In this document: piece after piece, positions 3,001 to 24,500 of the stretch
How the letters are laid out: each line of letters begins with the position of its first letter
How positions within the stretch are numbered: position 1 is the stretch's first letter
Source: Magnetovibrionaceae bacterium
GTDB taxonomy: Bacteria > Pseudomonadota > Alphaproteobacteria > Rhodospirillales > JBMYSY01
NCBI GenBank assembly: GCA_049603795.1
Contig: JBMYSY010000015.1
Coordinates: 47,531-111,530 of the forward strand
Length of the DNA stretch: 64,000 nucleotides
Reading direction: 5' to 3'
The notes under the pieces: model-generated
What the model was told of the DNA's origin: nothing
Databases searched by the model: none
The model's input: the letters and a program-made list of their open reading frames with translations, nothing else
Position numbers and translations under genes: made by a program

Positions 3001-3540
3001 CCAAGGCGGCAGCCGACGAGGCCGCAGACGCGGCGGAGGCTGCAGCCACAGCGGCAACCGCTGCCTACAATTCGGCTTTGGCGCACTTTAATGATGCGAC
3101 AGCCGATCTGGCGGCCTTGAATGCGACCCCGGTCCCCTCGGACGCCGACCAGGCGACGGCGCGGACCACGGCGATTGCCAATGCCACCGCCGCCGTCGCG
3201 GAAGCCGAGGCCGCGAAGGACGAGGCGAATGCTGCTGCCGGCCGGGCCAATACGGCTGCCGGCCTGGCGCGCGCCGCATCCGATTCGGCAAATGCGATTT
3301 CGGGCACGGCCGGTAGCGACGTCACGGATGCCCAGGGCTTCGCCACGACCGCCGCCGGTCAGCGCGATACCGCCGAGGATGAAGAAGCCCTGGCCGAGGC
3401 GCAGGAAAACCGGGCCGAACAGGCCGCCGGTCGGGCCGATGCCCAGCGGGAAGATTACGAGCAATTGCTGGCCCAGGCAGCCCAGGAAGCCGCCGAGGCA
3501 GCGGCCCAAGCCGCCCGTGACGCCCAGGCGGATGCCAAGG
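1..3540 (+). other. Ala-rich low-complexity, probably alpha-helical stalk region of the giant protein (at least ~1,170 aa)
   Basis: The translation is dominated by Ala with D/E/Q/T/S/N/R and has very few Pro, Gly runs or aromatics. Examples: AAAAAKAAAEAAAQQAADDARSSAEAVVQAKADADAAAE, and TAAQTALTAANAARTAADTALT at ~1561-1626, where Thr/Ala fall in a 4-3 spacing. It ends abruptly at DAKDDTHTINEDEADL (~3541), where the first cadherin-like unit starts. Confidence 0.7.
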
Positions 3541-6500
3541 ACGATACCCATACCATCAATGAGGACGAGGCAGACCTCGCCGATCTCACCATCTCTGTCC
3601 TGGCCAATGATAAGCGGGCAGACGGGGGCAATCTGGTCGGCGGCGAAGTGGTCTCCGTTGGTGAGACCGCCAACGGCGGAACGGTAACAATCGCCGATAA
3701 CGACACCGATGTGATCTATCGCCCGGCGGCCAACTTCTCGGGCACGGATACCTTCACCTATACAGTCCGGGTTCAGACCGGGACAGATGGTGGGGGCCAA
3801 CCGGTCTATTCCTTCTCGACCGCCAAAGTGACCGTCACGGTTACGGAGGTAAACGACGCGCCGACCCTGAAAGCCGACGTCGGGACCGTCTCGGATGAGG
3901 TTTCGACCATTACCATCAATGTTCTGGCGAACGACAGCGATCCGGAAAACCAGACCCTTTCGATCACGGGCGTCGGCAGCGGCGACGACCCCGCGACCAT
4001 CGATCCGTCGAATGGCGTTGTGGCGATCACCGCCAATGGGCGTGTGACCTATACCCCCAATGCGGGCGATTTCGATTATCTGGCCAAAGGCGAGACGGCG
4101 ACGGATACCTTCACCTACACCGCATCTGACGGTAGCGGTGGAGTGGCCACGCAGACGGTTGTGGTGACGGTTACCGGCACCAACGACGGACCGGTCGCGA
4201 GCAGCCTGACCGTTTCCGGCAATGAAGAAACGGATATTCAAGGAACGGTCTCGGCCACCGATGCCGACACGGGGGCTTCCATCACCTATGCGGTCACCTC
4301 GACAGGTGGACCCTCTAATGGTTCCGTGGTGATGAATTCGGATGGCAGCTTCACCTACACGCCCGACGATGACTTCGCCGGGACCGATACCTTCGTTTTC
4401 CGTGCAACCGACAATGAGGGCGCGACCTCCGACGAAACGGTCACCGTGACGGTCAATGACGTGAACGACGACCCGATCGCGACGGACGACACGGCGAGCG
4501 TAAATGCCGGTGCTTCCGTTACCTTCGACGTCTCCACCAATGATAGCGACCCCGATCCGGACACGACGCTATCGGTCTATTCCACGGGGAATGCGGCGTC
4601 CGGGTCGATATCGGTGAACGGCGGCGAGATCACCTATACGGCGGATGGCAGCGGCCTTGATGCCCTGGCGGCGGGCCAGAACCTTACGGATACCTTTGAG
4701 TATACCATCGAAGATGGCGACGGCGGCTTTGATACCGCTACGGCAACGGTCACCATCAACGGTGTCAATGACGCACCTGTTGCCGGCGATACACAGACGT
4801 CGGCGGATGAAGGCGGCAGTGTCACCGTCTCGGTTCTCGACAATGTAACCGATGTCGATACCGGCGACACGAAACGTCTGCAGTTGATCGGGCAGGGGAC
4901 CTACGGCGACGTCGCCATCGCGGCAAACGGTACGGATGTCACCTATACCCCCGATGACGACTTGACCAATTCTCTCGCTGTCGATCAGGTCCAGATCGAT
5001 ACCTTTACCTATACGGTGGTCGATGGTGCCGGTGCGACCGATGTGGGAACGGTGACGGTCACCATTCAGGGTACCAACGACGCGCCCATTGTCTCGGCGA
5101 GCCTCTCCGATCAGACGGCTGAAGAAAACAACGCCTTTTCGTTCACCGTGCCATCCGATGCTTTCACGGATGTGGATAGCGGGGACAGCCTGACTTACGC
5201 TGCGACGCTTGAAGACGGCTCGGCGCTGCCCGGTTGGCTCAGCTTCAACCCCTCAACGCGGGTGTTTTCGGGCACCCCGGGCAATTCCGATCTGGCCACT
5301 CTATCGGTCCGCGTGACGGCGACGGATGGCCAAAGTGTCAGCGTTTCCGATGTCTTCTCTCTGTCGGTTACGGAAACCGACGACCAGACCATTGTCGGTG
5401 ACGATACGGACAACGTGATCACACCGGGGGCGGGCAACGACAGCGTCGATGGTCGGGGCGGAACGGACCGGGTGATCTTCTCCGGGCTTGCGGCGCAATA
5501 TACCATTACCGATAACGACGACGGGACCTACACCGTCTCGGGCCCGGACGGCGTCAACGAACTGCAAAACGTCGAGGAACTGCAGTTCGACGATCAAACC
5601 ATCACGGTCGGTCGCGGCAGTACGGGGGCTGACCAGTTCCAGGGCGGCAGCGGCAGCGACAACTACAACGGCGGCGCTGGTGACGATGTTCTGGATGGCG
5701 GAGCCGGTGACGACATCCTTAAAGGCGGCGCGGGTAACGACAGCGTCCTGGGCGGAGAAGGTAACGACCAGCTGATCGCCGGTACCGGCAACGGCGACGA
5801 TCTCTACGACGGGGGGACGGGGTCCGACTGGATCACCTTCCCCAGCACCTCGTTGGGTGTCAGCGTCGATCTGGCCAACGGGACCGCCAGCGGTTCCGAA
5901 ATCGACAACGACACCATCACCAACGTCGAAAACGTCCTCGGTGGATCGGGCAACGATACGATCCTGGGCGACGGACAGGCCAACTCGCTCCTCGGCGGCG
6001 ACGGCAATGATTTTCTATCTGGTGCCGGCGGGGTTGATGCTCTGTTGGGCGGCGATGGTGATGACACCCTGAAGGGCGGCCTGGGGACGGATTTTCTGAC
6101 CGGCGGGGCCGGAACGGATCAATACCAGTACACCCAAGGCGACGGTCGGGACACGATCCTGCAAACCGGCGACGACAGCGGGGCTGACTGGGTCAATTTC
6201 CTGGGTGGTACCTATGCCGACGTGGATTGGGGCCGGTTGGGCGACGATCTGCTGATCGCGGTCAAGGCTAGTACGTCCGACGGAATTTCGACGAATAACC
6301 GCATCACGGTTTCCGGTCACTACACCACCACGGTCAGCGGCATCGCCTACTTCGAAGCCGATACGAACGAAAACAGCTTCTATTCGCAAGACGGTTCCAC
6401 GACGCGGATTTTCACGCCCGATACGCTCTCGGGTGCCGATCAGGGCATCTATACCGAGCTTCTGCAGGGGACCAACTTCGCCGACACCATCACCGGTGGC

Positions 6501-9500
6501 GGCGGCTACCGCGATTACCTCTTCGGCTATGGCGGCAACGATGTCCTTGAAGGGTCCGATGTCACGCGGGATGAACTGCGTGGCGGCAGCGGAAATGACG
6601 TCCTGCGCGGTCGAAGCGGCGATGACCGCCTGCGCGGCGATGCCGGCAACGATACGCTGGACGGCGGTGCCGGTAACGACATGGTTCGCTATGACAGGGC
6701 GAGCGAAGGGGTCACGGTCGACCTGACGGTCCAGGGTGCCGGAAACGCGCAATCCATCAGTTCCGGCCAAGGCAACGATACGCTGATCGATATCGAAAGC
6801 ATCCGGGGGTCTGACTTCGCCGACACCCTGACCGGCAGCAGTGCGGCCAACACCATCGACGGTCGGGCCGGCAACGATGTGATCAACGGAGGTGCGGGCA
6901 ACGACGTTCTGATCGGCGGCAGCGGCACGGACCGGGCCATCTTCTCCGGCTCGATTGGGGCTTATTCAATTACCCATAGCGCCTCCAATCTCACGGTCAT
7001 TGGGCCGGACGGGACGGACGTCCTCCAAGACTTCGAACAGCTGACCTTCGATGAAGGCACCTATGACCTGCTGATCGGCTCTGCCGGCAACGACACCCTG
7101 GCTGCCGGGACCAATCCGGCGATCTTCTTTGACCTTGGTGGATCGGACAGTTTTACCGGCGGCTCAGGTGCCGACTGGATCGTCTATAGCACCTCGGCAA
7201 ATCTGGCCATTGACTTGGGCCAGGAACAGTCGGTCGCCGGATCGGATGTGGATGATCTTTCCGGCATTGAAAACGCCGTCGGGGGATCGGGCGACGATGT
7301 CTTCCGGGATGGCCTCGGCAACAACATCATGTCGGGTGGCGATGGTGCCGATACCTTCTTCGCTTTCACCGGCAATGACACGATCCTGGGTGGTAGTGGA
7401 ATTGATACGGTCGTCTTGTCGCCGACCGAAATCCTGACCAATGCCACACGCAGCGGCAACGATCTGGTTCTGACCTATCTCGATTACGCGGCGACGAGCT
7501 ATACGATAACGGTGCCCGGACAATATGGCCCCGGCGGCAACCTTGAAATCTGGCAAGACGTCGGAACCGATGGCTCCACGGATTACAACATTCTGGGCAG
7601 CCTGACAGGTGGATCGGGCGATGATCTTTTGGTCGGCACGGGAGGCGCAGATTCGATCACCGGCGGTGACGGCGCAGACATCATCTATGGTGGTGCAGGA
7701 GACGACAGCATTCTGGGCGGCGACGGTCTGGACTTCATTGATGGCGGGACCGGGACCAACAACCTGGATGGCGGATCCGGTATCGATATCCTGTCCTACC
7801 AAAACGCCTCGTCGGCCGTTTCGGTCAACCTGATCAGTGGAACGGCGGCCTCTTCGGACGGCAGCATTTCGGATACGGTCTCTAACTTCGAGGCCGTGTT
7901 TGCCTCGGACCATGCGGATACCCTCCTCGGCAGTACAGGCTCCGATATTCTCTATGGCGGAGCGGGCGACGACACCATCGCAGGCGGCGGCGGGGCGGAT
8001 TCCCTGGATGGCGGCGACGGCGACGATGTGCTGTTGTTCAGTGGCTCGGAGAACATTCACGGCGATGACGGCCAGGATACGGTAGAGGTCCTCTCAGGGG
8101 CCGATCTGGACCTGACCTCTGCAATCCTGTCGGAAATCGAGGCCATCCAACTGGCGGATGCCGCCTCCCAGACGGTTACACTGGACGCGGACAGCGTCTG
8201 GTATTCGGTCGATGAAAACAATGAGCTGATCATCAAGGGCGACGATTCCCATACGGTTCGGAATGTCGGGGACTCGTTCGGTCTGGCCGGTCTGGAAACC
8301 ATCGAAGGCCAGGACTATTCGGTCTATACGGGCGAATACAACGGCGAAACGGTCACGCTGAAGATCGATGATGATATTTCCCTCGAAGGTTTCTCGGCCG
8401 CGCCGGTGATTACCGATCCGGGAAGCAGCCTCAACCTGGACGGGGCGGACGATTACATTTCGCTTGGCGATCCCACAGCCACGGACCTGGAGCCGGCCGG
8501 AGACCCCTTTAGTGCCTCTGCCTGGTTCTACTTCGATCCGACCCAGACAGGGGACCGGGCCATTCTCTCTCTCGGCAATGATGAGAGCGCCACCGAGGGC
8601 TTTAGTGTTTTCCTGAGTGGTTCCGGAAGCAGCACGGAACTGGTTGTCCGGGTGAATACGGGCGGCGGTGTTCAGAGCCGGATGGCTGCCAGCCACATTG
8701 AGATGCCTAGCGAAGAAGGCTGGTATCATGTGGCCATGGTCATCGATGGCTCAAGCGCCAGCGGCGAAGACCAGTTGCTCGGTTACCTGAATGGGTCCAA
8801 CTCAGGCTGGGTGCCGGGATATGGGTCAATCTCCGAAGACCGCCTGACGATTACCAGCTCCGGGATCGAGGGCAACGGACGACAGTTGCTGATCGGTGCC
8901 AGGGACGCCGGAAATGATGGGATCGAGGATCATTTCACCGGTGCCATTGCGGATGTTCAGTTCTGGGACAAGACCCTCAGCGCCGAAGAGGTCATCGATG
9001 TCTTACACGGCAACGTGGACAATGCCGACGCCGATCTGCTGGCCCGCTACGACTTTGCCGACAGCGCCGATTTCGGTGCCGACATCGCGACCGCCAACGG
9101 GACCTTCAGCGGGGTGACAACCGGTCAACCGACCCAGGGGACCTTTGCCGAGCCGAACATCTTTGTGGAGGGACAAGGTGCCATCCGGCCGCTTACCGGC
9201 CTGGCGTTTTCCGATCCCGACAGCACCACCTTCGACGGTGGTCAGTTGGATGTGACGATGACCGGACGATCCGGTTCCGACTCCTTCATTCTCTACAACG
9301 GTAACGGCATCACTTTCGGTGCCAACGACGCCGTGCTCTACAACAATGTGACGTTCGGTACCCTGTCGAACTTCTTCCAGGGCCGGGTCACCCTTGACCT
9401 GAATGCCAATGCCGATATCGCTGCGGTCCGCGCCTTCGCCGGAAACATTGGCTTCAACAATTCGACCGAAACGCCGACAGCCGGTTTCCGGACCATTGGG

Positions 9501-12500
9501 ATCACCTTCGATGACGGTGATGGCGGTGTTCTGCAGGACTTCGAAAAGTCCATGTACGTCAGCCCGACAAACACGGCTCCGGAAATCCAGACCGGCATCG
9601 CGTCGAGCGAAGAAGAAGTCCTGATCGGTACCACCACCACCGAGGACCAGTCGCTGCCGGAAGCCGTTCAACTGGCCGATGGCAATGTCTTTGTGGTCTG
9701 GCGGAACGAACGGGATGGTTCGGGTGTCAACGATGTTGGCGGGATTTCGGGCAGCATCATCGATCCGGAAGGATCGACCGTCGTTTCCGAATTCCTGGTC
9801 AGCACCAGCCAGAATTTCTTGCAGTGGCGTCCGCAGGTAACCGAGTTGGCAAACGGCGACATTGCCGTCGTCTGGGTCAGCCGGCATTCAGGCGAAGACC
9901 TGATGGCGCGCATCTATCAGCCCAATGGCCAGCCGCGGACCAATGAACTGACGCTTTCCGACAATACGGTGGGTGATTCTGCCGGCGGAACGGGTATCCC
10001 ACAGATCCTGTCGCTGGATGGCGATGGTTTTGCTGCTGTCTGGATGACGGGCGGGGATATCAAATATCAGAAGTTCTCGGACCTCGGGGTTCCGGATGGC
10101 ACACCATCGACGGCCAATACGATCACCACGGGGACGCAGAACCGTCCCCATGCCGTGGCCCTCGATGGCGGAGGCTTCGTGGCCAGTTGGCTGGATGAGA
10201 ACCTCGGCATTCAGGTGCGCCGCTTCAATAACGACCTATCACCGGCGGATACGGTGGAGATCTCGGTCGATGCCGTGCCCAGCGGAAGCGAGGGCTATTC
10301 AGCGGTCGCGCCCGTCGCCGGCGGTGGATTTGTCGTGGCCTGGGTCGATGGCACCTCGGTCTATGCCCGCCTGTACAATGACGCTTCAGCGCCCCTCGGG
10401 TCCGAATTTGTGGTCGGAATCGCGACGGCGATCAGCGGACCGATTGATCTGGTAGCCGATCAGGACGGGAATTTCGTCGTCCACTGGCAGGACGTGACAG
10501 GCGGTGCCGACGCCAAGGAATCCATGTTGGCCCGCTTTACCAGCGATGGTGCCTTGCTGGGTGATGCCATCAGCATTGCGGAACATGCCGATGGCGATCA
10601 GGCCAATGCCAAGATCACGCCCCTGGATGACGGGCGGTTGTTCGTTGTCAGTGATACCGCGAGCACTGACGGCGGCTATGAATCGGTCGACGTTGTCTAT
10701 CGGATTTTCGATCCGGGTTTCTCAGGCACCTATGTCGAGGATGGCGCTCCCCTGCAGGTCGACCCTGGCTTCCTGGTAACGGATGTGGATTCGGGCGATT
10801 TCGAAGGCGGCTCCCTGACGGTTCAGGTCACCGAAGGCGACGACGGTGGCGATGTCCTGACCATTGCGGACGAGGGTAGCGGAACCGGGCAGATTGGCTA
10901 CCTGAGTTCGGCCGGGACGGTTTTCTATGAAGGAGACCTGATCGGGACGGTGACGGGCGGCGTGAACGGTCAGGCCCTGGCCATCTCCCTCAACGATGCG
11001 GCGACACCGGAGGCGGTCAGCGCTCTCGGTCGCGCAATTCTGTTCTCGAACGAGGCCTATGAGACGGGGAGCGACGACCGGACCATAACCTTTACCGTCA
11101 ACGACGGTCATGGCGGCCCGACGCCGAGCGCGACGATCTCCAAGGCGGTCCAGATTTCGCCCTCAAACGATGCGGCCACCCTGTTCGAGCCGCCGATTAC
11201 GCATAGCCTATCCCTTGATGGGGCCTCCTATATCGATCTCGGCGACCCCTATAACGACTCGTCGCGTGAACCCCTGTCGCCGGACAACGATCCCTACACG
11301 GTCGAGGCCTGGTTCTACTATCACCCGGACCACAGCGGGACGCGCTCCATCGTTTCCTGGGGCAGCCAGACCTATGATCAGGAAGGCTTCAACATCTTCC
11401 TGACGGATGCGGATTCTGATGGGGTCGATGAACTGGTCGTTCGCGCCCACACCTCGACCACCACGAGCCAGAGCCAGATCGGTGCCAGCCATATCGAAAT
11501 GCCCCAGGAGGAGGGCTGGTACCACGTCGCCATGGTGATCGACAGCGATAACGGCAATGCGGACGACACCATTATCGGCTACTTGGACGGGGACAGCAGC
11601 GGCTGGACCGCAGGCCATGACAGTGTCACCGACGATCAGATTGACCTGACATCGTCCGGCATTGATCCGAAAACGGGGGTGAGCGTTGCCATCGGTGCTT
11701 CGACCGACAGTGACGGCAATCCTGGCCAGTATTTCACCGGCGAGATCGGCGACGTGCGCTTCTGGCGCGAGGCGCGGACAAGGGACGAAATCGAAGACGG
11801 CATTCAAGACGGCGTGGCGAGCGATGCGGCCAACCTGGAAGCGCGATATCTGTTCAGCGCTCCGGAAGGACCGGAAGTGGATGCAACCGGGAATGTGCCG
11901 GATGGCCTTTCCGTCGGATCGCCCGGCGTTTTTGTTGGGCTGGGCATTCCCCTGTTCATCGAAGGTGGCTCTCCGGCGCGGGTCGGCAGCGAGGTCAAGG
12001 TTGATGACCCGGACAGCAGCGATTTTGCCGGTGGTACGCTCTCGGTTTCCATTACGGCCGGGGTAACAGGCGATACCCTGACCATCATCGATGGCGGCAC
12101 GGACGGCGTCCAGATTTCGGGCAGCAATGTTCTCTATCAGACCGCTTCGGTCGGCACGTTGGTCAGCACGGGAACGGATTCAACACCGCTTGAAATCACA
12201 TTGAACGCGAATGCCACGCCTTTGGTGGCCGAGGCGATTTTCGGTGCCATCGGCTTCGCGGCTGGTTCTGACGCGCCGGGTTCGAGCCGGGACCTGACTT
12301 TCTCGCTGACCGACAGCGCCGGCGGTGCGGCGGCGCAGTTGAACCAGACGGTCTATATCCAGGAACAGAACGACGCGCCGGTCATTGCGGGCAGCGATGG
12401 ATCGGCCTCGGATGAGGCCCGGGTCGGGACCAACTTCGCGGGCGATCAGACCCATGTCTCCGCGGCTGAACTGCCGGACGGCAACGTCTTCATGGTCTGG

Positions 12501-15500
12501 GCGCAGCCGGATGACACGACCACGGCCAACGACCACATCGTCTCGATGATCATCAACCCGGCGACGGGGGAGGTGATCCAGCCGGAAACCAAGGTTTCGA
12601 TTATCGGCGATCAGTTCGGATACAAGACTCCGCAGGCTTTGGTTCTGGCCGACGGAAATGTCGCGGTCGCTGCCACAGGCAGCTCTTCCAACTACAACCA
12701 GATCGTCGTCTATGATCCGGAAAATCCGTCACCGCCCCTGCTGGGCGCAACGGCAATCGGCACCAACCCGAACCTCGGCAACGAGGACCGGGCACCGAAG
12801 ATGGTGCAACTGGCCGATGGCGATATCATCGCCGTGGGGTCCGATGGTTCGACCATCAGCGCCTATCGCATCAATGAGAATGCCGGGACCTATGCCGGCG
12901 GTTCGCCTTTCTCGGCCGCCATCAGCGAGAGCACAGGCGGGTCTCGGCTCTATGCTGATGTTGCGGCTCTGAGCGACGGCGGCTTTGTGGTCTCCTGGCA
13001 CGACAGCTCCAACGGGGTCATGGTCAGGCGGTTTGACGCCGACTTCACGGAACGGGATGCGAATGACGTCGCCGTGCTGGCCTCGCCTTCCGGGACGGAA
13101 GACTACACGTCGGTGCTCGGCTTGGACGATGGCGGCTTCGTGGTCGCCTGGGCGGACGATACGGGCGTCTTTGCGCAGCGATACGACAACCTGTCCCAAG
13201 AGGTCGGCAGTGTTATGTCGGTGGCGTCGGCTTCGGTCGATGCGCCGATCAACCTGAGCGCGCGGGCTGCCGGTGGCTTCTACGTCACCTGGAATGATAC
13301 AGAAGCGGAAGGGGCCGGCGATGGGGCCGCCTATCTTCGCATGTACGACGAAAATGGCGGCTCGGTTGGGATCGCGATCAAGCTTGCTCAGTCGGTCGAT
13401 GGTGATCAGACCTATCCGACGGCCTTGGAGCTGTCCAACGGGAACCTGTTCTCAGCCTTTTCCAGCGAAAGTTCAACCGAGGGCTACAACGGTCTGGATG
13501 TCGCTTGGCGAACCTTCACCGGCTTCTACGTGGAAGACGGGGCACCGAAGCAGATCGATCCGGCCTTTAGCGTTTCGGATGTGGATTCGACCGATTTTGA
13601 TGGCGGTTACCTGGACGTCACGGTCACCAGCAATGGAGAGTCCACCGATCTGCTCACGGTCGCCAACATCGGGACCGGCACAGGCCAGATTAGTCTCAGC
13701 GGGACGGATGTCAGCTACGAAGGCACCCTCATCGGTTCGATTTCCGGCCAAGGTGAAGGGCAGACCCTTTCCATTGATCTGAACGCCAATGCCGATGCCG
13801 AGGCCTTGTCGGCCCTGGGCCGCGCGATCCGGTTCGAGACCACTTCCGATACGCCGGACATCAATGTCCGAACAATCCGTTTCGAGGTGGACGATGGCGA
13901 TGGTGGTGCCACGGCGACGGCGACCCACGACGTAAGCCTCAGCCTTCTGGCGGCGAACGATGCGCCGACGGTAGAGATCGAAAGCGGTGTGGATGACGCG
14001 CTTCGGATCGACAACACAAACGACTACCTGATTGTCTCCCCCGACGACACATCTGCACTGTCCAGCGCTTTCACGGTCGAGGGCTGGTTCAAATTCGAAG
14101 ATGGCAACCTGTCCCAGGAGTACGCGCCTCTCGTCTTCTCGGGCTATGCCTCCTATTCCGGCTCGCTGGAAGGCCTGCACGTCACAATCGGTAGCGGCGG
14201 TGTGGTCAACGCCAAGGTCGGTGACTTCTCCAACGGTTATGACGAGGTAACCGGCTCAACAGCCGTCAATGATGGGTCCTTCCACCACGTGGCCGTCACC
14301 TTCGACGGGACGAACCTGAAGGTCATTATCGACGGCGTTGAAGACGCGAGTTCGGACGTTTCCCCGATCGAACCGGCCTTCGACTACGACATCCGGGTTG
14401 GTTACGACGAGGTCGAGACACCGGACCTTAGCGTCGATACGACCTTCTGGGACGGCGATGTTTATGGCGTCCGGGTCTGGAGCCAGGCACAGTCCGCGAC
14501 GGACATCGCCGCCGACATGAATCGCACCCTGGATGGGAATGAAACCGGGTTGCTGGTGGATCTTCCACTCGACGGGGATCTGACCGACAACACAGGCAAT
14601 ACCGATACGGCTCTCGTCTATAACAGCACGGGCTCCATCTCGGGCAGCTTCGTCAGCCAAGGTGCGGTTTCCACAACCATTGCCTATACCGAAGGAACGC
14701 CTGAGGTCGTGGGGACCAACATTACGGTCTCCGATCCGGACTCGGCCAACTTCAACGGTGGTCAGATCATCGCCGAAATCACAGCGGGTGGTGATTCCTC
14801 CGATACCATCTACATCGGTTCATCCGGTCTCGTAACCGCGTCCGGCGGCTCGGTGTACTTCGATTCCGCGCCCGTTGGCACCTATACCGGGGGCGGTGCC
14901 AAAGATGACCCTCTTGTTGTCACCTTCAATGCCATTGCCGATGCGACGGTTGTCCAGGGGGTGGCCCAGGCGCTGACCTTCGACAATACGTCGGGCGCAC
15001 CTGTTACCACCGACCGGACCTTCTCGATCTTTGTCAGCGATGGTGATGGTGGGACCTCTGTCGAGGCCACGCGGACGATTGAGGTTTCGGTTATCAACAG
15101 CGACCCGGTCGTGACCATCAACGGCGCAACGGAAACCTATACCGAGGGCGGTACGGCCATTCTGGTCGATGAAACGATCACGGTCAGCGATAGCGACAAC
15201 GCCAATCTCGACGGCGGATCGCTCTCGGCCTCGATCACCGTTAACGGTCGGCCAGGCGATGCGCTGGCGATTAAGAACATCGGCACCGGCACCGGAGAAA
15301 TTTCCGTATCCGGTAGCGCGGTCTCCTACCAGGGCGTTCAGATCGGGACCTTTGCCGGGGGTACGATCAGTTATGATGCCACGCCTATTGTCGAGACTTT
15401 TGAGGATGGGATCAGCGACTGGCGTCTGACCCAAGACGGTGAGAACGCAGCCCACGTATTGACAGGCGGTTCCGACAACTCGACCTACTTGAGGGGCGAA

Positions 15501-18500
15501 GACGGAGCCGTATCGGGCTGGTTCAAGTTCGGCAACGATACCCTGTTCAATGGTGATCGCTCGGATTTCTATGGCGGCGAACTGTCCTTCCAACTGAAAG
15601 ACAACCAGATTGCAGACTCGGGCACAGATGACTCGGACGTCATTATTCAAGGCAACGGAACAAGTATCCGTATCTCCCTGGACGGCCAACCGGGCAGCGA
15701 TTGGACGGACTTCACGGTTGACCTGAATGATGCCGCAGGCGGGTCCGGTTGGCGCCTAGGATCCTCAACCGGGCCGTTGGCCACAGAGGCTGAGATCCGC
15801 GGGGTTCTTGGCGATATTACGGATATCGAAATCCGGGGCGAGTTCTCCTTTACGAGCAGCGATGTCGCCGGGCTCGATAACGTAGCTTTGACCCCACCGG
15901 TTACGGCGACCCCGCTTACCGTGTCGTTGGATGCGGATGCGACGCCCGAGGCTGTTCAGGCTCTAGCCCAGGCTCTGACCTTTGTCGCCTCCGGTGACAA
16001 TCCGTCCGAATTGGACAGGACCGTCGAAATCACGGTCAACGACGGCCTGGGCGGGACCGGTTCCGCGACAAAGACGGTCAGCGTCGCTGCCGTGAACGAC
16101 GATCCGGTTGCCGCCGGTGATCTGGTTTCCACAGGCGAAGACACCGCCATCACCTTCAACGTCATCCTGAATGATACGGACGTTGATGATCCCGACCTGC
16201 TGACCGTTTCCTCTGTCGGCTCTGCCACCTATGGCACCGTGACGATTGAGTCCAACGGGAAAGAAGTGACGTTCACGCCGGGCAGTGCGGCGGACGCCCT
16301 GACGGCGGGACAGGTTGTCGAAGACACCTTTACCTACGTGGTCACCGACCCCCATGGAGCCACGGATACGGCGACGGCGACGGTGACGCTCACCGGTACA
16401 AATGACGAGCCCTTGGTAACGGCCAGCAGTGGCTCGGTGGCCCATTCGGAAGACGGAGGTGCGACTGTCGTCGATGGATCGCTGACGTTGAGCGATCCGG
16501 ACAGCGCCAACTTCGACGGGGGCAGTCTGACGGTAAGGGTTACCGGCAATGCGAACGTCGGCGATACGCTGACCGTCAAGAATATCGGTACCAATACCGG
16601 CGAAATCGGCTTTGACGGGACCGCCGTCACCTACGGCGGGACGACCATCGGCACGGTGTCCGGCGGCGAGGTGAGGGCCGAAGTTATCCGCTCAACTTTC
16701 GAGACGGGGACCGAGGGCTGGACCGCCGTCAACAATCACAGCAATTTCGGCCAGACCTCCACGGGTGGTGTTGATGGATCGGGCGGCATTCGCGCGACCG
16801 ATCAGGGTGGCGACAATTTCTACTTCGTGACTCCCACAGCCTATGGCGGCAACCGCTCCGCTTACTACGGGGGCACGTTGTCCTTCGATATGCGGGTCAG
16901 CAGCGCCAACAGTTCGTCGGCAAGCGGTCCTTATCTGCAGGTCGTCGGTGCCAGCCAGACGCTTTTCTTAAGCGGTCTCGACCTGCCCGGAACCAACTTT
17001 ACCTCGATCGAAGCGGTCTTGGATACCAGTGCGGATTGGCGGGTCGGATCCCAGTCAGGTTCGGTCGCCACCGAAGCCGAGATCAGGGCGGTTCTTTCCG
17101 ATCTTCAGGAAATCCAAATCCGGGGCGATCATACCGGTGTCTTTGAAACCACGACTTTGGACAATGTCGAACTGGCCCCGGCAAGTGCCCTTGAGATTTC
17201 TCTGAACAGCAACGCCACGCCGGAAGCGGTCGAGGCTTTGGCCCAGGTCATCACCTTTGAGGCCGACAACAACAGCCCCGATACCGGTGACCGGACCGTC
17301 AGCTTCACGGTGAGCGATGGTGACGGTGCCACCTCTACAGCCAGCCGGACGGTGACGGTAGCGGCGACCGACGATGCGGCCAAACTCGGGCTTTCGGGCC
17401 AAGGCATTGATCTGGCGGGTGGGGATACGCTTTCCAGCAGCGACGCCAGCCTGCAGCCCGGTGTCGCGGCCTTCTCCGCCGAGGTCTGGTTCGATTGGAA
17501 CTCGGCTGACGCGACCGGAAGCCCGCGGATCATCATGGGCAAGGGTGCCGAAGCGGCAGGCGACACCGGCTGGTCCGTCTTCCTGGATGGCACGACGGGC
17601 AACGAGACGCTGACCGTCCGTCTGCGGGGAGCCAACAACACCACGGCGATAGAGCGAACCATTGCGCTCGACGGCAACGCGGACGAAGGGTTCAACCACC
17701 TGGCCTTTGCCGTCGATCCGGAATTCGGGACCCTGACGACCTGGTTGAATGCCGATGACGACAACTGGACCGGTCCGATCGACCTGACCGAGGGCGGTAC
17801 GGTCACCAGTGCGACCAATTCGATCACCAGTTCGGATGACTTTATCGTTGGCGACGGCACCTCGGGCGGGGCGTCTTTCGGTAGCCGCCTGGACGACATT
17901 CGGGTCTGGGATCGGGCCCTGTCTGCGGCAAATGTCGAAGACAACATTACCGGTTCGACGATCTCCAATGCGGATGAAAGCCTCGTCGCCCGCTACACCT
18001 TTGAAGACGATCAGGCCTTTGGTGACAATGCCTCCTCGAACGGCGCATCACTGGACCTTGCGCTCTCCGGCACCGCAGCGGCGGTCGACTTCGATCAGGC
18101 AACCACTTTCGAGGGCGGCGGCGGTGCCGTCCGGATCGACCCCGATCTGGTCTATGGCGATGTGGATTCCGAGCCCGCCAGCGGGGCGACCGTTACGGTC
18201 AGCTTCACCAGCGGGTCCGAGACTGCGGACAGCCTGGGCATCCTGAATTCGACCGATGGCAAGCTGACGGCTTCCGGCGGCGGCATCACTTTCGATAGCA
18301 CACCGGTCGGGACCTACACAGGCGGCACGGACGGTTCGACCCCCTTGGTTATTACCTATAATTCGGCCGTGACCGAAGAGGCGATCCGGGCGACGCTTCG
18401 GAACCTGTCGTTCAACAATTCGGCGGGTGATCCGGACAATACTGACCGCGTTGTCAGCATTCAGGTCCAGGATGCCAACGGCACGACGAATTCGATCTCC

Positions 18501-21500
18501 CGGACCCTCTCTGTCGTGGATGCCAATGTGGCACCGGAAGCGGGGCTCTTGGCCACCGGTTCCGCCTTCCAGTTCGACGGGACGCAAGACAACCTGCGTT
18601 TCGATACCCAGACCGAATTCAATCCGGCCAAGGGCGATTTGACAGTCGAACTCTGGTTCGAATGGGACGGCACCACCAACGACACCCAGATCCTGTTCCA
18701 TAAATGGAACGGCAGCGGCGGGTATATCGGCAAGATCGAAAACGGTGTCCTGCAGCTCTATGCCGATACCAAGGGCACGGGGGCTGTCGATGCCGAACTC
18801 GCCATGCAGCGGATCGATCTTTCCGGAAATGGCGTATCTGCGGGGTGGCACCATGTCGCCATGGTCATCGACGGCGATGGTACGACAGGCACCGTCACGG
18901 GCTACCTTGATGGCAGCAACGCCAACTGGACCAACGGTGACGGCGGTTCGGTGACCAGCAATACCCTGACCTATGATGCCGATGGCATCACCCAGGGTGC
19001 GCCGCTCTGGGTCGGTTCCGATACCGTTTACAACTACAGCTTCAATGGCGGGATGGATGAAATCCGCGTCTGGACCGAAGCGCGGACGGCCGCTCAGATA
19101 GCAGAAGGCGTCAACACCGTCGTTGATAACCCGACGGGGGAGACGACGCTGGCGGGTTACTGGCGGGCGGCGAATGCCACGGACACCTCGGTTGTCGATA
19201 GCTCGGGCAATAATCACCACGGCACCTATACCAACGACGCGCATGTGGTGGGCCACCTCGGCACCGCCTGGCAGGGGACGACCGCCAACTCAGGGATCGA
19301 GGTGGCGGCACCCTCAACATTCAGCAACTCGAGCAATTTCTCGGTTGAAGGCTGGGTCCGGCTGGACAAGGACGCCACCGGCATTCAGACCGTCGTTTCC
19401 CAATGGGGCACGGCGGATGCCTATGCTGATGACCGGAGTTTCCAACTGTTCCTGACAGACGGAGACGTCGGCGATGGCGACTTCAACCTGACGGCCAGCA
19501 TGAGCCCGAACGGCGACCTCACCGATAACTGGAATGTGGTGGGCACCAAGTCCATCACAGCCGGCCAATGGCACCATGTGGCCATGACCTATGACGGCTC
19601 CATGCTTCAGCTGTATGTCGACGGCGAGACGGATACCGCGGTCACCAATGCAGCCGGTAGGAATTTGGGTTCAACAACACCGGTGGGCATCGGTGTGCGG
19701 CACAACAGTCCGACCAGCCCGGAGTATCCCCTGGATGGCCAGTTGTCCGATGTTCGGATCTGGACGGTGGCCCGTGATGCCGCAGGTATTCAGAACGGAA
19801 TGGACGGCTCCGTCTCGCATGAGACCACCGGGCTCGAGGGCTATTGGCCCCTGAACGAGGGCACGGGCACGACGGCGCAGGATGTGACCGGTAACGGCAA
19901 CGACGGTACCCTGTCTTCAGCCGATACCTGGGTGAATACGGCCCCCGCTATTTATTCGGATCTGGCCGAAGGAAGCACCTTCGAAGATCAGGCGATCTCG
20001 GGCGTTATCGGTCGTTTCGATGCGGATGGCGATACGGTTGCCGTCACGCTGGAAACCGATGCGGCCAACGGCACGGTGACGATCAACGAAAGCAACGGTG
20101 TCTACTCCTACGTCTACACGCCGGATGCCGACTTCGATGCCACGGATAGCTTCCAGGTTCGTCTGAATGACGGCAGCGGTGCCTCCAACGCGGAGGTGGT
20201 GAAGACCTTCACGGTCAATGTGGAGGGAACCCAGGATGTCCCGGTCGCCAATCTGACCGACCAGGTGGCCCAGGAAGATACCGACCTCGTGATACAGCTT
20301 TCGGCCGAGGACCCGGATACGGGCGACAGCCACAGCTACACGATTACGGCCCTCCCCACCACCGGCGGCAGGCTCTATCAATACGATGGCAACGCCACCG
20401 ATGATCGGGGGGCCGAGATCGTCGAACCCAACATTCTGGTCGCGGATTCCGCCGGGCGCATCATTTTCGTACCGGATGCGGACTTCGCGGGGACCGGTCC
20501 GTCCTTTGCCTATACGGCCAATGACGGCACGGATACCTCGCCGGCCAAGACGGTCAACATCACGGTCACCAATGACAATGATCAGCCGGGCTTCGCAGGG
20601 GTATCGGCGGGATTTGAATCCTTCCAGTTCGATGGTTCGGGTGCCGGCCTTTCGGTGGCTTCGGATGCGTCCTTGAGCCCGGGAACCGGAGACCTGACGG
20701 TCGAAACCTGGTTCTATTGGGATGGCTCGCCGCCGAGCGGAACATCCTATGCCCTGTTTGAAGCGAGGCCGGGTTCGGGCGGCAACGGCGCCTACATCGC
20801 CAACATCCATGAGTCCGGATTGTTGATGACAACGGTGCGGACGGGTTCAAACAACTCGGAGAATGATACCGCCGTTCAGCGCATCGACATCAGCGGCCTG
20901 GAACACGGTTGGCACCATTACGCGATGGTGCTCGATGGCGATGGCATTTCCTCTGGCACCGTGACCAGTTACTTGGATGGCGAGACCACCGGGTGGCTGA
21001 ACGGGGATGGCGCAACCATCACGGATAATGTCTATGGCTTTACGGGCAACGGTGGAAGCCTGGACTTGAATGATCCATTGCGGATCGGTCATTGGAACTC
21101 CGGTTCCACCGCTCATTTGAAGGGGCAGATGGCCGAAATCCGCATCTGGGAGTCCGCCAAGAGCCAGGACGCGATCCAGCAGGGCATGTTCGAGGCCGTG
21201 GATGATCCGGCAAACAATGCCGATCTGGCACTTTATTTGCGCCCAGACCAGGCCACCGTGTCCGGCGTTACGGACCTTTCGCCCAAAGGGAACGACGCGG
21301 CGAATGTGGGCGATGGCCCGCAGGTTTTGCACCACCTCGGCAATGCGGTCGAGCTTCCGGGTTCGGGTGAGTCCATTCGGGTGACGGCAACGGAAGAGCT
21401 TTCCGGCATGGATGCCCTGACGTTGGAGACCTGGGTCAAGCTGGATAGCGTCACGGGCAATCAGGCGATCTTCACGACCAGCGAACCGGGAACCGCCTGG

Positions 21501-24500
21501 TCCCATCAACTGACCACGAACGGCAGCGAATTGAGTTTCCTGGTCAGCAGCGATGGCAGTTCGGCTGATCTTGCTGACCTTCAGACCTCCGGATTGGGGC
21601 TGGAAACAGGCATCTGGTACCACGTCGCCGCCACCTGGGACGGCTCGACCTCGACGATCTATGTCAACGGCACGGTCGCGGGCACGAACAGCGCGACCTC
21701 GGGCACGGTAAAGACGGGCGCAACGGATCTTGCCATCGGCTCCAGCATCGATACCAACGGTGACGCGACGATCACGTTGGATGGCCAGTTGGCCGAGGCC
21801 CGGATCTGGGGCGTGGCACGCACGCAGCTTCAAGTTCAAAGCAGTGTCGATGGTGACGACATCTCCGCCAACGCGCCGAACCTGCTCGGGTTCTGGCCCA
21901 TGGAGGAAGGTGCCGGTACGACCGTCCATGATGTGACGGGCAACGGCCTGGACGGAACCTTGCCGAGTGCCACTGTCTGGGCGGACACCAGCGTCCCGCA
22001 GTTCTCCACCAGCGAGACGATTGACCTGTTCGAGGATTCCTCGACAACCGGCCGCCTGAAGGTTTTCGATGCGGATGCCGGGGACACCCTGACCGTCACG
22101 GTCGATACCGATGCCACCAACGGCTCGGTCACGGTCTTCCAGGATGGCGGCGAATGGAAGTTCACCTATACGCCCACGGCCAACTACGCCGGTTCGGATA
22201 GCTTCACCCTGCAGGTGGACGACGGTACGGGCGAGTCAAACGCAACGAAGACGCAGACCTTCACGGTCGAGGTCGAAGCGGTCAATGACACACCAGTAGC
22301 CGAGGTGACCAGCGGCTTGCAGATGCAGAAGGGCACCCAGCTGGTGCTTGATCTGGAAGCGACCAACCCAGAGACCGAGACGGTGGCCTTCACCATCGAG
22401 GCCCTTCCGTCCAACGGTGCGCTCTATCAATACGACGACGGTGCCGCCGACAAGCGGGGAGCGGTTATTCAATCCTCCGGCACGGCTGTGACCGATGTTG
22501 ATGGGCGGATTGTTTTCGTGCCGGATTCGACCTTCGAAGGCACGGGTCCTTCGATCCAGTTTTCTGCCACCGATGCGCAGGGGGCAAAGTCGGATACGGT
22601 GACCCAGGCGATCGAAGTGCTGGGGTATTCGGAGACGATCCATAACCAGAACACCGACCTGACCTGGGAGGAGTCTGCAAACTGGACTGCCGGTCTGCCC
22701 GGCGTGGCAAGCAAGGCGACCTTGACCGGTTCCGGTACAGTGACGCTGAACGCCGACGTCTCGATCGCCGAGTTGGATGCCGATACGAACCTTGACCTCA
22801 AGTCCAACACCCTGACCGTATCGGCGCTTGGCGACATAGCAGCCGGCAAAACTCTGAAGCTGGAAGGCGGCAATCTGGCCGGCGATCACAACATGACCGT
22901 CAACGGCACCTTGTCCTTCCAGTCCGGGACCCTGAGTGGCCTTGGAACCACAACGGTCGAAGGTGGATTCCAACTGTCCGGTTTGACGGCGGACAAGACG
23001 TTGGACGACCGGACCATCGCTCTTGGCTCCGGGGTTACGGCCACGATCAAGAACGCCACATTGCTGGGCGACGGTGAATTGACCAGCGCCGGTACCCTGA
23101 CCCTGCAACGGACGGTCAGCCTGGATCCGGCCTTCGCCAACTCGGGCAGCATCGCCATCCAGGCGATTTCGGGTGTGTCTGCGGTCATGAATCTTGATGG
23201 CGGTCTGACCAACACCGGCACGATTACGATGGACAGCATCGCGACTGCGGAAACCAGGGACGTTGGGATCAACGTTTCCTCGGCGGCAGATGGTTTCGTG
23301 AACGATACCGGCGGCACGCTCCAGGTTCTGGGAACGGTTGCTGCCGGTATCCGCTACGTCACAGGGTCTGTTACCAACAACGGCACCTTCGATATCGACC
23401 ACGCCTTTACGGTCAATAACGCCAGCGAGACCTTCGATACCCGGGACGGGGACATTGATGTCGCCTCCGGCAAGAACATGACCATCAATGCCGGGACGAC
23501 GATTTTCGGGACGGATACCGATCTTTCCGGCACCGGTAGACTGACACTTTCCGGCACCCATGCGCTGCAATTGGCCGAAGACTTCACCTTTACTTCCGAT
23601 ACGCTGGAAATGCGCTTCGGCAACGTATCGGTCAGCGGCCCGGGCAAGCTGATCAACGACGGGACCTTCACCTTTGAAAACGGGTCTCTGAGTTTCGCGA
23701 CCGAAATCTTGAACAACCAGGACGCCAGGCTTGAAGTCATTTCCATCAACGGCACGGAACTGACGCTGAACACCTCGTCGGATATCACGACCAACGGTCT
23801 CTTGGTCATGGATAACCAGGCGACAGGTGAAACGCGCAGCCAGTCCCTAAACCTGACAGGTTCTTCTAAGCTGGTGATCGGATCGACGGGCGAGCTGCAG
23901 GTGGACGGGACGGTCGCGACCGGTTTCCGGACCATAACGGGGTCGGTTCAGAACCTCGGCCTGATCGACGCCAACTACAGGCTTGATGTGGCGAACAGCG
24001 GCGAGGTCTTTGATAGCCAATCAGGCACGATCGACATCGCCAGCGGCGTGGTCATGGATATCGACGCCGGGACGACACAGTTCGGCACAGGGACAACGGT
24101 CCAGGGGGCCGGTCGTCTGACGTTGGGCGGTACTCATGAGCTCGACCTGGTCAGCGACTTCACCTGGGATTCCACCGAGACAGACATTTCCTTTGGAAAC
24201 GTGACGGTGACGGGGCCGGGCTCCCTCCTGGTCGATGGCGATCTCACCTATTCCTTTGGATCGCTGAGTTTCGAGACCCCGATCGTTGTCGGGGACACGG
24301 GAACACTAAATGTCTTCGGCGCGAATGGGGCGGATCCGGTTCTCAATACGTCGGCCAACATTACGGTCAATGGTGACTTGGTCCTGGACAATATCCAGGT
24401 GGGCCAGACGCGGTCTTCCTCGATCAATGTCACCGGGGCATCTGAACTGGTCATCGGCCCGACGGGCGAACTGATCGTGAAGAGCACGAACGCGGGCTCC

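What the first reader, a model, noticed from the sequence alone, without database searches (positions are those of the whole stretch)
9150..18530. Eight copies of a ~140-aa 'SDPDS-x-FDGG' module that I cannot assign to a named family
Seen: the consensus is P..(V/I)...(L/V/I)(T/S/K)V.D(P/V)DS..F.GG.L.V.(V/I)T..., then D.L.(I/V)...G.G.G.I..., then V.Y.G..IGT..GG.....L.I.LN..AT.EAV.AL.RAI.F.N....P....R...F.V.DG.GG, ending ND(A/D)P. Copies start at ~9150, 10735, 11940, 13520, 14665, 15109, 16412 and 18086. The ND(A)P ending resembles cadherin-like units, but the ~140-aa length and the helix-like AT.EAV.AL..A..F element do not.
Basis: seen in the sequence. Interest (0 to 1): 0.55.

Follow-up and report, generated by a model that had tools for sequence, protein, structure and literature searches.

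The report
Unnamed 150-residue repeat domain in giant adhesin
The eight repeats are real copies of a widespread but so far unmodelled ~150-residue beta-sandwich domain, probably a calcium-stiffened cadherin-like spacer, in a giant secreted adhesin-like protein; two copies carry a laminin-IV-like domain inserted in one loop.

Summary
One open reading frame (nt 27-50444, at least 16,805 aa, open at its 5' end) holds exactly eight copies of a 142-151-aa module between aa 3046 and 6171. All 28 pairwise BLASTP comparisons are significant, and leave-one-out HMM E-values are 5e-24 to 2e-42. That domain matches Pfam Laminin_B and the laminin/perlecan L4 fold.

The module has no Pfam-A or NCBIfam model and no sequence relative in the PDB. 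It is nevertheless common: 11,001 cluster representatives match, with up to 47 copies per protein, in Planctomycetota, Actinomycetota and Proteobacteria. NCBI annotation calls such proteins "hypothetical".

AlphaFold2 (pLDDT 92) predicts a compact sandwich of about ten strands with one helix. Direct-coupling analysis of 664 modules shows strands from the two halves pairing with each other. It also shows two conserved acidic clusters placed like cadherin calcium sites.

I read the module as a calcium-dependent scaffold or extender domain. It would be a long, helix-bearing variant of bacterial cadherin-like repeats that spaces lectin-like domains in a probable type 1 secreted (RTX) adhesin. Calcium binding and function are inferred, not shown. 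It is a new variant of a known kind and of moderate interest.

The parts
27..50444 (+). Giant ORF, at least 16,805 aa. There is no in-frame stop upstream of nt 27, so the gene probably continues 5' of the window. It looks like an RTX/T1SS-type adhesin.
   Evidence: ORF list and 5' end check. Pfam finds Big_9, Cadherin_4/5, HemolysinCabind, about 25 Laminin_G_3, He_PIG, Laminin_B and FG-GAP. RTX nonapeptides sit near the C-terminus, there is 1 Cys, and D+E 2364 against R+K 570.
9162..9587 (+). Module copy 1 (aa 3046-3187)
   Evidence: Family HMM 80.5 bits, profile positions 3-149; leave-one-out E 5e-24.
10728..11180 (+). Module copy 2 (aa 3568-3718). This is the copy that was modelled.
   Evidence: 145.6 bits. 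AlphaFold2 pLDDT 92, pTM 0.87.
11955..12386 (+). Module copy 3 (aa 3977-4120)
   Evidence: 111.7 bits.
13527..13973 (+). Module copy 4 (aa 4501-4649)
   Evidence: 153.8 bits; 52% identical to copy 2.
14682..15113 (+). Module copy 5 (aa 4886-5029), directly followed by copy 6
   Evidence: 123.8 bits.
15135..15392 (+). Module copy 6, N-terminal part (aa 5037-5122; profile positions 2-84)
   Evidence: 80.5 bits; alignment A3.
15393..15899 (+). Laminin-IV (L4)/Laminin_B-like domain nested in the F-G loop of copy 6
   Evidence: Pfam Laminin_B E 8.6e-13, 48.8 bits against a 22.4 cut-off; a single ~180-column gap in the intact copies.
15900..16109 (+). Module copy 6, C-terminal part (aa 5292-5361; profile positions 78-148)
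   Evidence: 67.9 bits.
16149..16445 (+). Ordinary Big_9/Cadherin_5 repeat between copies 6 and 7
   Evidence: Pfam Big_9 E 2.7e-14.
16443..16682 (+). Module copy 7, N-terminal part (aa 5473-5552)
   Evidence: 73.2 bits.
16683..17180 (+). Laminin-IV (L4)/Laminin_B-like domain nested in the F-G loop of copy 7
   Evidence: Pfam Laminin_B E 2.8e-13. Foldseek of the model: perlecan laminin-IV-like domain 9i5a E 1.6e-8, laminin alpha2 L4b 4yeq E 1e-5 with TMt 0.63.
17181..17381 (+). Module copy 7, C-terminal part (aa 5719-5785)
   Evidence: 61.8 bits.
18105..18539 (+). Module copy 8 (aa 6027-6171)
   Evidence: 102.6 bits.
9636..10721 (+). 362-aa unassigned element between copies 1 and 2, with several (at least five) internal 'DG.F.V.W' repeats of ~50 aa; a beta-propeller is a guess only
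   Evidence: No Pfam, NCBIfam or PDB sequence hit; repeat motif listing.
12435..13517 (+). Second copy of the same unassigned 361-aa element, between copies 3 and 4
   Evidence: 34% identical to the first over its full length, E 9e-45; no family hit.
11187..11945 (+). Laminin_G_3 (ConA-like lectin fold) domain between copies 2 and 3. Similar domains lie at 8364-9149, 14013-14669, 17406-18095 and 18588-19526.
   Evidence: Pfam Laminin_G_3 E from 1e-11 to 1e-20.

Best explanation
The module is a single, autonomously folding ~150-residue beta-sandwich domain. It belongs to a large bacterial repeat family that has no Pfam or NCBIfam model.

I read it as a calcium-dependent scaffold or extender domain. 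It looks like an enlarged relative of bacterial cadherin-like (Big_9/Cadherin_5-type) repeats that has gained an extra beta-hairpin and an alpha-helix, which pack against each other.

In this giant, probably type 1 secreted protein the module is mostly not used in long homotypic arrays. Instead it acts as a spacer or pedestal between globular, presumably ligand-binding units: ConA-like Laminin_G_3 domains, a ~360-aa repeat element, and L4/CBM-like domains.

Two conserved acidic clusters would bind Ca2+ outside the cell and stiffen the junctions to neighbouring domains, as in cadherins and RTX-adhesin extenders. One is E6/D7 + S112/D113 + N149/D150 at the C-terminal pole. The other is D21/D23/S24 + D128/D130 at the N-terminal pole.

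In copies 6 and 7 the F-G loop hosts a complete laminin-IV-like domain. That domain would hang off the side of the rod, just as L4 domains are nested in LE domains of animal laminin.

Shown here: the repeats, the family size, the absence of models, the predicted fold, strand pairing between the two halves, and the nested insertion. Inferred: calcium binding, rigidity, the spacer role and secretion.
For: The repeats are real.

The family is large: 11,001 representatives at E <= 1e-3 and 2,200 at <= 1e-30, with full-length matches and up to 47 copies per protein. Relatives carry tandem arrays of 145-152-aa units.

No Pfam or NCBIfam model covers it. Profile searches of PDB sequences find nothing. 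PGAP names a 7-copy protein 'hypothetical protein'.

AlphaFold2 gives pLDDT 92 and pTM 0.87, with about 10 strands and one helix at residues 96-104. Foldseek finds only generic Ig-like sandwiches, with no hit at E <= 1e-3.

Direct-coupling analysis (mfDCA) on 664 modules (Meff 607) gives antiparallel ladders C(45-51)-I(105-111) and B(31-37)-J(122-127). It shows hairpin-helix packing (58-102, z = 12) and F-G loop closure (79-85). It also couples E6-D150 (z = 9.3), 7-113, 113-150, S24-D130 (z = 10.4) and D21-D128. These positions are 81-98% conserved across 121 proteins.

The C-terminal ~35 residues match the ends of the protein's own Big_9 repeats. An hhalign comparison against those repeats spans the whole Big_9 domain, with gaps at the hairpin and at the helix.

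The host protein has RTX repeats, an acidic tail, 1 Cys and strong net acidity.

The insert is a Laminin_B/L4 fold. A related domain occurs on its own in P0161.

From the literature: Ca2+ in the linkers rigidifies diverse RTX-adhesin beta-sandwich extenders (PMC7493085), and L4 domains are nested in LE domains and sit peripherally on the rod (PMC6744579).
Against: No calcium binding or rigidity was measured or modelled, and I had no access to the model coordinates. The assignment of the acidic clusters to calcium sites rests on conservation, coevolution and analogy.

The homology to Big_9/cadherin-like repeats is weak: hhalign probability 23%, E 9e-4. The Foldseek TM-score to any Ig-like domain is at most 0.44, so 'cadherin-like' is not established as common descent.

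No T1SS genes lie in the window.

An extender role is classically shown for long homotypic arrays. Here seven of the eight copies are flanked by other domain types.

The coupling between E6 and D150 could reflect contacts between adjacent repeats rather than contacts within one domain.
Confidence: 0.6

Rival explanations
1. The module is itself a ligand-binding unit, for example a carbohydrate-binding domain, rather than a passive spacer. The hairpin-plus-helix addition would form the binding surface.
For: The extra hairpin and helix are conserved and coevolve strongly (58-102, 69-98, 74-102), which is more than a simple spacer would need. Weak sub-threshold matches to BACON, a putative binding domain, occur in 8 of 36 members. 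From my own knowledge, not tested here: cadherin-like (CHDL) domains of Saccharophagus degradans CabC/CabD were reported to bind polysaccharides. That work is cited within PMC12153261.
Against: The most conserved residues are glycines, core hydrophobics and the acidic clusters at the two poles. No obvious surface patch of aromatic residues stands out. Relatives carry up to 47 copies in tandem, which is typical of stalks. In this protein dedicated lectin-like domains (Laminin_G_3, L4/CBM-like) sit next to the module.
Confidence: 0.2
2. Nothing distinct is present. The module is simply a very divergent Big_9/Cadherin_5 (tandem-95) repeat with long loops, and belongs in those existing families.
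For: There are sub-threshold hits to Big_9, Cadherin_5 and tand_rpt_95. The C-terminal 35 residues match the ends of this protein's Big_9 repeats. hhalign spans the whole Big_9 domain. NCBI names some relatives 'tandem-95 repeat protein'.
Against: No copy reaches the thresholds: at most 20.6 bits against 23.6 for Big_9, and at most 21 bits against 90 for tand_rpt_95. The module is 142-151 aa against ~90-98. About 50 extra residues form a conserved, coevolving hairpin-and-helix unit rather than variable loops. hhalign probability is only 23%. The relatives named tandem-95 also contain genuine ~100-aa repeats elsewhere, whereas module-only proteins are called hypothetical.
Confidence: 0.15
3. 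The 'module' is really two independent small domains, an N-terminal half of ~80 aa and a C-terminal half of ~65 aa. The Laminin_B-like domain in copies 6 and 7 then simply sits between them in series and is not nested.
For: The interruption falls in the middle of the module. HMMER reports the halves as separate hits.
Against: Coevolution shows strands of the N-half paired with strands of the C-half: the C-I and B-J ladders, B-G contacts, and hairpin-helix packing, with z up to 12. AlphaFold2 gives one compact domain with pTM 0.87. The halves are never found apart among the 150 best relatives.
Confidence: 0.03

Closest known systems
Bacterial cadherin-like / Ig-like repeats (Pfam Big_9 PF17963, Cadherin_5 PF17892, Cadherin_4 PF17803; NCBIfam tandem-95 repeat NF012211)
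   Same: Both occur in the same giant secreted proteins, including this one. Both have a beta-sandwich, a C-terminal '..V.V..VNDAP' linker, a 'DG.GG' loop before the last strand, and a D.D motif about 20 residues after the start. There is a weak profile-profile alignment across the whole Big_9 domain.
   Different: The module is 142-151 aa against ~90-98. It has an extra G.G.IGV.G..V.Y beta-hairpin and an AT.EAV.AL helix that pack together. It fails all gathering thresholds.
Classical cadherin EC repeat calcium-site layout (xEx, DRE, DxNDN, DxD motifs)
   Same: A conserved Glu lies near the N-terminus (E6) and is coupled to the C-terminal N149-D150-x-P linker and to a mid-domain acidic loop (S112-D113). 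A D21-x-D23 motif is coupled to D128/D130 at the other pole. This corresponds to the base and top half-sites that form inter-domain Ca2+ sites in cadherins; that comparison comes from my own knowledge of cadherin structures.
   Different: There is no Pfam Cadherin hit. The size and topology differ, with an added hairpin and helix. Calcium binding is not shown.
Extender (BIg) domains of RTX adhesins such as MpIBP, MhLap, AhLap and SiiE (PMC7493085)
   Same: Both are diverse 10-15-kDa beta-sandwich repeats in giant, acidic, Cys-poor proteins that carry RTX repeats. In the known cases Ca2+ bound in the linkers gives rigidity.
   Different: Here the module alternates with other domain types instead of forming the long homotypic stalk. 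No sequence or fold match to the solved extender domains was found.
Laminin/perlecan L4 (laminin IV) domains nested in LE domains (PMC6744579; PDB 4yeq, 9i5a)
   Same: The insert in copies 6 and 7 matches Pfam Laminin_B and the L4 fold. As in laminin, it is nested inside a loop of a rod-forming repeat.
   Different: The host repeat is a beta-sandwich, not a disulphide-rich EGF-like domain. The protein is bacterial. Sequence identity to the animal L4 structures is about 13-16%.
Shorter (~122-126 aa) 'D.DS..L..A.V.I...Y..AL..V.Y.N' repeats of other giant bacterial proteins (e.g. P0022, P0027, P0047)
   Same: The module profile detects them end to end at about 30 bits per copy. They share the D.DS start, the helix motif and the R...F.V.DG...VNDAP end.
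   Different: They are about 25 residues shorter than the window's module. From reading the sequences, the G.G.IGV.G..V.Y.G..IGT..GG hairpin region seems to be the part that is missing. P0022, a relative with this repeat, showed no Pfam family over its array.

Membership tests
Pfam Big_9 (PF17963) / Cadherin_5 (PF17892) / Cadherin_4 (PF17803) | HMM score at or above the gathering threshold (23.6 / 26.5 / 25.1 bits) | tested here: not met
   The best module-only score is 16.5 bits, E 0.016. 0 of 36 diverse members reach a threshold and only 3 of 36 give a weak Big_9 match.
Pfam Big_9 (PF17963) / Cadherin_5 (PF17892) / Cadherin_4 (PF17803) | Domain length of about 90-100 residues with a seven-strand all-beta sandwich | tested here: not met
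   The module is 142-151 aa. AlphaFold2 predicts about 10 strands plus a helix.
Pfam Big_9 (PF17963) / Cadherin_5 (PF17892) / Cadherin_4 (PF17803) | Detectable homology by profile-profile comparison | tested here: inconclusive
   hhalign against this protein's own Big_9 repeats gives probability 23%, E 9e-4, and spans the whole Big_9 domain with two gaps. The C-terminal 35 residues match Big_9 ends at E from 1e-3 to 1e-6.
NCBIfam tandem-95 repeat (NF012211) | Score at or above the 90-bit cut-off | tested here: not met
   At most 21.4 bits, and only over the C-terminal part.
Cadherin-type calcium-binding repeat (function-level) | Conserved acidic motifs at both poles, positioned to form inter-domain Ca2+ sites | tested here: inconclusive
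   E6, D21, D23, D128, N149 and D150 are 81-98% conserved and are coupled in two clusters. No coordinates or ions were available to confirm the geometry.
Cadherin-type calcium-binding repeat (function-level) | Measured Ca2+ binding and Ca2+-dependent rigidification | not testable with these tools
   This needs DSF, ITC, SAXS or a crystal structure.
RTX-adhesin extender region (PMC7493085) | The host protein is a T1SS substrate: C-terminal RTX repeats plus a secretion signal, acidic, Cys-poor | tested here: met
   HemolysinCabind and RTX nonapeptides at aa 16657-16694 are followed by an acidic, non-repetitive tail of ~110 aa. There is 1 Cys in 16,805 aa. No T1SS genes are in the window, so secretion itself is inferred.
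RTX-adhesin extender region (PMC7493085) | Long homotypic tandem array of the repeat | tested here: not met
   In this protein only copies 5 and 6 are adjacent; the others are separated by Laminin_G_3, the unassigned element or Big_9. Relatives do have arrays of 4-47 copies.
Laminin_B / laminin IV (L4) domain (for the inserts in copies 6 and 7) | Pfam PF00052 score above the gathering threshold (22.4 bits) | tested here: met
   47.2-50.8 bits, E from 2e-13 to 3e-12.
Laminin_B / laminin IV (L4) domain (for the inserts in copies 6 and 7) | L4 beta-sandwich fold | tested here: met
   Foldseek: 9i5a perlecan laminin-IV-like E 1.6e-8; 4yeq laminin alpha2 L4b E 1e-5, TMt 0.63. The model confidence for the insert is only moderate: block-mean pLDDT 43-93, mostly 58-93.
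Laminin_B / laminin IV (L4) domain (for the inserts in copies 6 and 7) | Nested inside another repeat, as L4 is in LE domains | tested here: met
   The intact copies align with a single gap at one loop. The two halves coevolve as one domain, and the loop ends 79 and 85 are in contact.

The most novel reading that the evidence does not exclude
The ~150-aa module would be a structurally new beta-sandwich type, not derived from cadherin-like repeats. Its conserved hairpin-helix face would be a functional binding or assembly surface, and its F-G loop a general docking site for nested domains. In that case bacteria would have independently built the same 'rod repeat with a peripheral L4 domain' design as animal laminins and perlecan, or the two would share ancestry through gene transfer of the L4 unit.
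Probability: 0.12. Interest if true: 0.6.

Novelty: new variant of a known kind. Interest (0 to 1): 0.4.

Why it matters
A domain present in more than 11,000 protein clusters, often in dozens of copies, has no Pfam or NCBIfam model. As a result long stretches of many giant bacterial surface proteins are annotated as nothing, or the whole protein as "hypothetical".

Defining the family would improve annotation of giant adhesin genes in Planctomycetota, Actinomycetota and Proteobacteria. The boundaries, the conserved calcium-site candidates and a confident model are all given here.

The two interrupted copies give a clear bacterial example of domain nesting. It mirrors the L4-in-LE arrangement of laminin and marks a loop that tolerates insertion of a whole domain, which is useful for protein engineering. 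It does not change how such adhesins are thought to work.

Tried and rejected
- **Genome scan with the alignment.** A single-copy query found only 4 distant loci, and the window's own genome is not among the GTDB representatives.
- **Word-indexed protein search.** It returned only 9 hits, mostly frameshifted fragments. The exhaustive search was needed to see the family.
- **Other split modules.** None was found among the 150 best relatives, so how common nesting is remains unknown.
- **Search with copy 7 plus its insert.** This found no second nested example, only a related Laminin_B-like domain occurring on its own.
- **PDB sequence searches.** Profiles of 16 and of 36 sequences both gave nothing significant.
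- **Literature.** A search for DUF4915/TIGR03032 gave no papers. I found no paper describing this module.
- **Chance or low-complexity repeats.** Rejected.
- **Two independent half-domains.** Rejected.
- **Long antisense ORFs inside the giant gene** (for example 46575-50603, minus strand). I treated these as the usual by-product of high G+C and did not test them.

Full report
**What is there.** The flagged region lies inside a single + strand open reading frame, nt 27-50444, encoding 16,805 residues. There is no in-frame stop codon upstream of nt 27, and the translated upstream codons continue the alanine-rich N-terminal region. The gene therefore very probably runs off the 5' end of the window. 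The exact sequences of four neighbouring proteins occur in an NCBI metagenome-assembled genome labelled Magnetovibrionaceae bacterium, on a 116.9-kb contig.

Pfam finds the following in the giant protein: Big_9, Cadherin_4 and Cadherin_5 repeats, He_PIG, three blocks of RTX nonapeptides, about 25 Laminin_G_3 domains, two Laminin_B domains and C-terminal FG-GAP repeats. The C-terminus has RTX repeats followed by an acidic, non-repetitive tail. The protein has one cysteine, and 2,364 Asp+Glu against 570 Arg+Lys. This is the profile of a type 1 secreted RTX adhesin. No secretion genes lie in the window, however. The downstream genes encode a DUF4915/TIGR03032 protein, a CHASE3 chemoreceptor, CheW, a histidine kinase and two isocitrate dehydrogenases.

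**Checking the observation.** An HMM built from six obvious copies recovered all eight. A family HMM made almost entirely from modules of other organisms found exactly the same eight and nothing else in the 16,805 residues. Pairwise identity is 26-52%. All 28 pairs are significant by BLASTP, and leave-one-out HMM E-values are 5e-24 to 2e-42.

One correction is needed. Copies 6 and 7 are each interrupted after the 'IGT..GG' loop by about 170 residues, then resume at 'L.I.LN..ATPEAV'.

**Is it a named family?** None of the eight copies reaches any Pfam-A or NCBIfam threshold, even when matches up to E = 10 are listed. Only the C-terminal 35-55 residues give weak matches to Big_9, Cadherin_5 and the tandem-95 repeat. 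The same is true for seven relatives made almost entirely of the module and for 36 diverse members scanned one by one. Profile searches of all PDB sequences found nothing, with best E-values of 0.42 and 0.06.

The family is nevertheless large. An exhaustive HMM search of 1.84 billion cluster representatives gave 11,001 proteins at E <= 1e-3 and 2,200 at E <= 1e-30. The matches are full-length, with up to 47 copies per protein.

Among the best 150 relatives there are two size classes. A 'long' class of 145-152 aa scores 100-140 bits per copy and is the same as in the window. A 'short' class of 122-126 aa scores about 30 bits per copy.

Named relatives come from Nocardioides, where they are annotated 'tandem-95 repeat protein' because of other repeats they contain. 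A 7-copy protein from Planctomicrobium is annotated 'hypothetical protein'. Loci in GTDB genomes include Albimonas, Rhodobacteraceae, an alphaproteobacterial MAG and Ectothiorhodospiraceae.

The other InterPro member databases could not be searched.

As an independent test I ran mean-field direct-coupling analysis on 664 non-identical long-class modules from 150 proteins, with an effective number of 607. The results, in copy-2 numbering, were:
- **Strand pairing across the two halves.** Antiparallel ladders link strand C (45-51) to strand I (105-111), and strand B (31-37) to strand J (122-127).
- **Hairpins.** The D/E hairpin (57-70) and the J/K hairpin are both visible.
- **Hairpin-helix packing.** The D/E/F hairpin packs on the helix: 58-102 at z = 12, plus 69-98 and 74-102.
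- **Loop closure.** Residues 79 and 85 are in contact, closing the F-G loop.

Strands from the N-terminal and C-terminal halves therefore interleave in one domain.

**Conserved chemistry.** Across 327 modules from 121 proteins the most conserved positions are Y4, E6, D21, D23, G30, L32, D44, L46, G75, G79, G80, L86, A94, P115, R120, D128, G129, G131, N149, D150 and P152.

The coupling analysis groups the polar residues into two clusters. One contains E6/D7 with S112/D113 and N149/D150 (6-150 at z = 9.3; also 7-113 and 113-150). The other contains D21/D23/S24 with D128/D130 (24-130 at z = 10.4; also 21-128).

This matches the layout I know from classical cadherins. There, a Glu near the N-terminus, a mid-domain acidic loop and the DxNDN linker form the base half-site, and a DxD motif plus a late Asp form the top half-site of the next domain.

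Together with the C-terminal 'V.V..VNDAP' similarity to the protein's own Big_9 repeats, this suggests an enlarged cadherin-like repeat. A weak hhalign alignment (probability 23%, E 9e-4) spans the whole Big_9 domain with gaps exactly at the hairpin and the helix, which points the same way. The homology itself remains unproven.

**The nested domains.** The inserts in copies 6 and 7 match Pfam Laminin_B at 47-51 bits against a 22.4-bit threshold. A model of copy 7 with its insert has pLDDT 75.7, and the module parts mostly score 74-97. It keeps the module's order of secondary-structure elements on both sides of the insert.

By Foldseek the insert matches the perlecan laminin-IV-like domain (9i5a, E 1.6e-8) and laminin alpha2 L4b (4yeq, E 1e-5, TMt 0.63). 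It also matches carbohydrate-binding modules such as CBM11. A related domain, 35% identical, occurs directly after a hydrophobic, signal-peptide-like N-terminus in a 423-aa protein. The insert is therefore an autonomous unit.

Because the module's halves form one interleaved domain, this is a true nested insertion in the F-G loop. In animal laminins the L4 domain is likewise inserted within an LE repeat and sits peripherally on a continuous rod (PMC6744579). Copies 6 and 7 are each other's closest relatives at 50-53% identity. This suggests one insertion event followed by duplication. I found no other split module among the 150 best relatives.

**Architecture and proposed mechanism.** Between aa 2788 and 6500 the domain order is as follows, where M denotes a module copy:

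Laminin_G_3 - M1 - 362-aa unassigned repeat element - M2 - Laminin_G_3 - M3 - second unassigned element - M4 - Laminin_G_3 - M5 - M6 (with L4 insert) - Big_9 - M7 (with L4 insert) - Laminin_G_3 - M8 - Laminin_G_3.

The module thus brackets globular, presumably ligand-binding domains and does not form a homotypic stalk here. In relatives it does form arrays of 4-47 copies.

My best reading is a calcium-dependent scaffold or extender domain. After secretion into a calcium-rich medium the two acidic poles would bind Ca2+ and stiffen the junctions, holding the lectin-like domains apart and away from the cell. This was shown for other, unrelated-in-sequence beta-sandwich extenders of RTX adhesins (PMC7493085). 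The calcium binding, the rigidity and the secretion route are inferences.

The main rival is that the conserved hairpin-helix face makes the module a binding domain in its own right. I cannot exclude it.

**Verdict.** The module is real, a single domain, very widespread, and absent from Pfam-A and NCBIfam. It is best described as a long, helix-bearing variant of bacterial cadherin-like repeats. It is a good candidate for a new family definition, and the nested laminin-IV-like domains are a neat structural curiosity. The expected function is conventional, so interest is moderate.

Noticed in passing
window 1-60: The giant ORF has no in-frame stop upstream of nt 27, and the upstream codons read AASAARAA. 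The gene is therefore probably truncated by the window and encodes more than 16,805 aa. Exact matches of neighbouring proteins place the window in a Magnetovibrionaceae MAG contig of 116.9 kb.
   Followed up: partly
window 9636-10721 and 12435-13517: Two ~360-aa elements are 34% identical to each other (E 9e-45). Each has several (at least five) ~50-aa repeats with the motif 'DG.F.V.W'. They have no Pfam, NCBIfam or PDB sequence match. A beta-propeller is only a guess. A similar repeat opens the unrelated protein P0022. This may be another unmodelled domain.
   Followed up: partly
window 27-2126: The first ~700 residues are 39% alanine with regularly spaced acidic residues, which looks coiled-coil-like. 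A Pfam scan of the first 4,000 residues listed no family whose best match lies here, and NCBIfam found nothing. This does not look like the usual N-terminal retention module of LapA-type adhesins.
   Followed up: no
window ~5616-8090 and ~34500-35860: Large internal blocks of RTX nonapeptides lie at aa 1864-2680 and 11495-11943, in addition to the C-terminal block at aa 16657-16694. Internal RTX blocks are unusual for classical RTX adhesins.
   Followed up: no
window 50474-51616: A DUF4915/TIGR03032-family gene starts 30 nt after the giant gene's stop codon, on the same strand. Its function is unknown and no paper in the library mentions either name.
   Followed up: partly
window 57839-61484: Two different NADP-isocitrate dehydrogenase genes lie side by side on the minus strand: the monomeric type (738 aa) and the Iso_dh type (406 aa).
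   Followed up: no
P0022, P0027, P0047, P0064 (relatives, not in the window): A shorter (~122-126 aa) repeat class shares the D.DS start, the 'Y..AL..V.Y.N' helix motif and the VNDAP end. It forms arrays of 20-40 copies. P0022, the one relative of this class that was scanned, showed no Pfam family over its array. Its many weak matches summed to a spurious whole-protein hit on Calsyntenin C-terminal.
   Followed up: partly
window 46575-50603 (- strand) and many others: Long antisense ORFs of up to 1,342 aa lie inside the giant gene. I took these to be the usual by-product of ~60% G+C coding sequence and did not test them.
   Followed up: no
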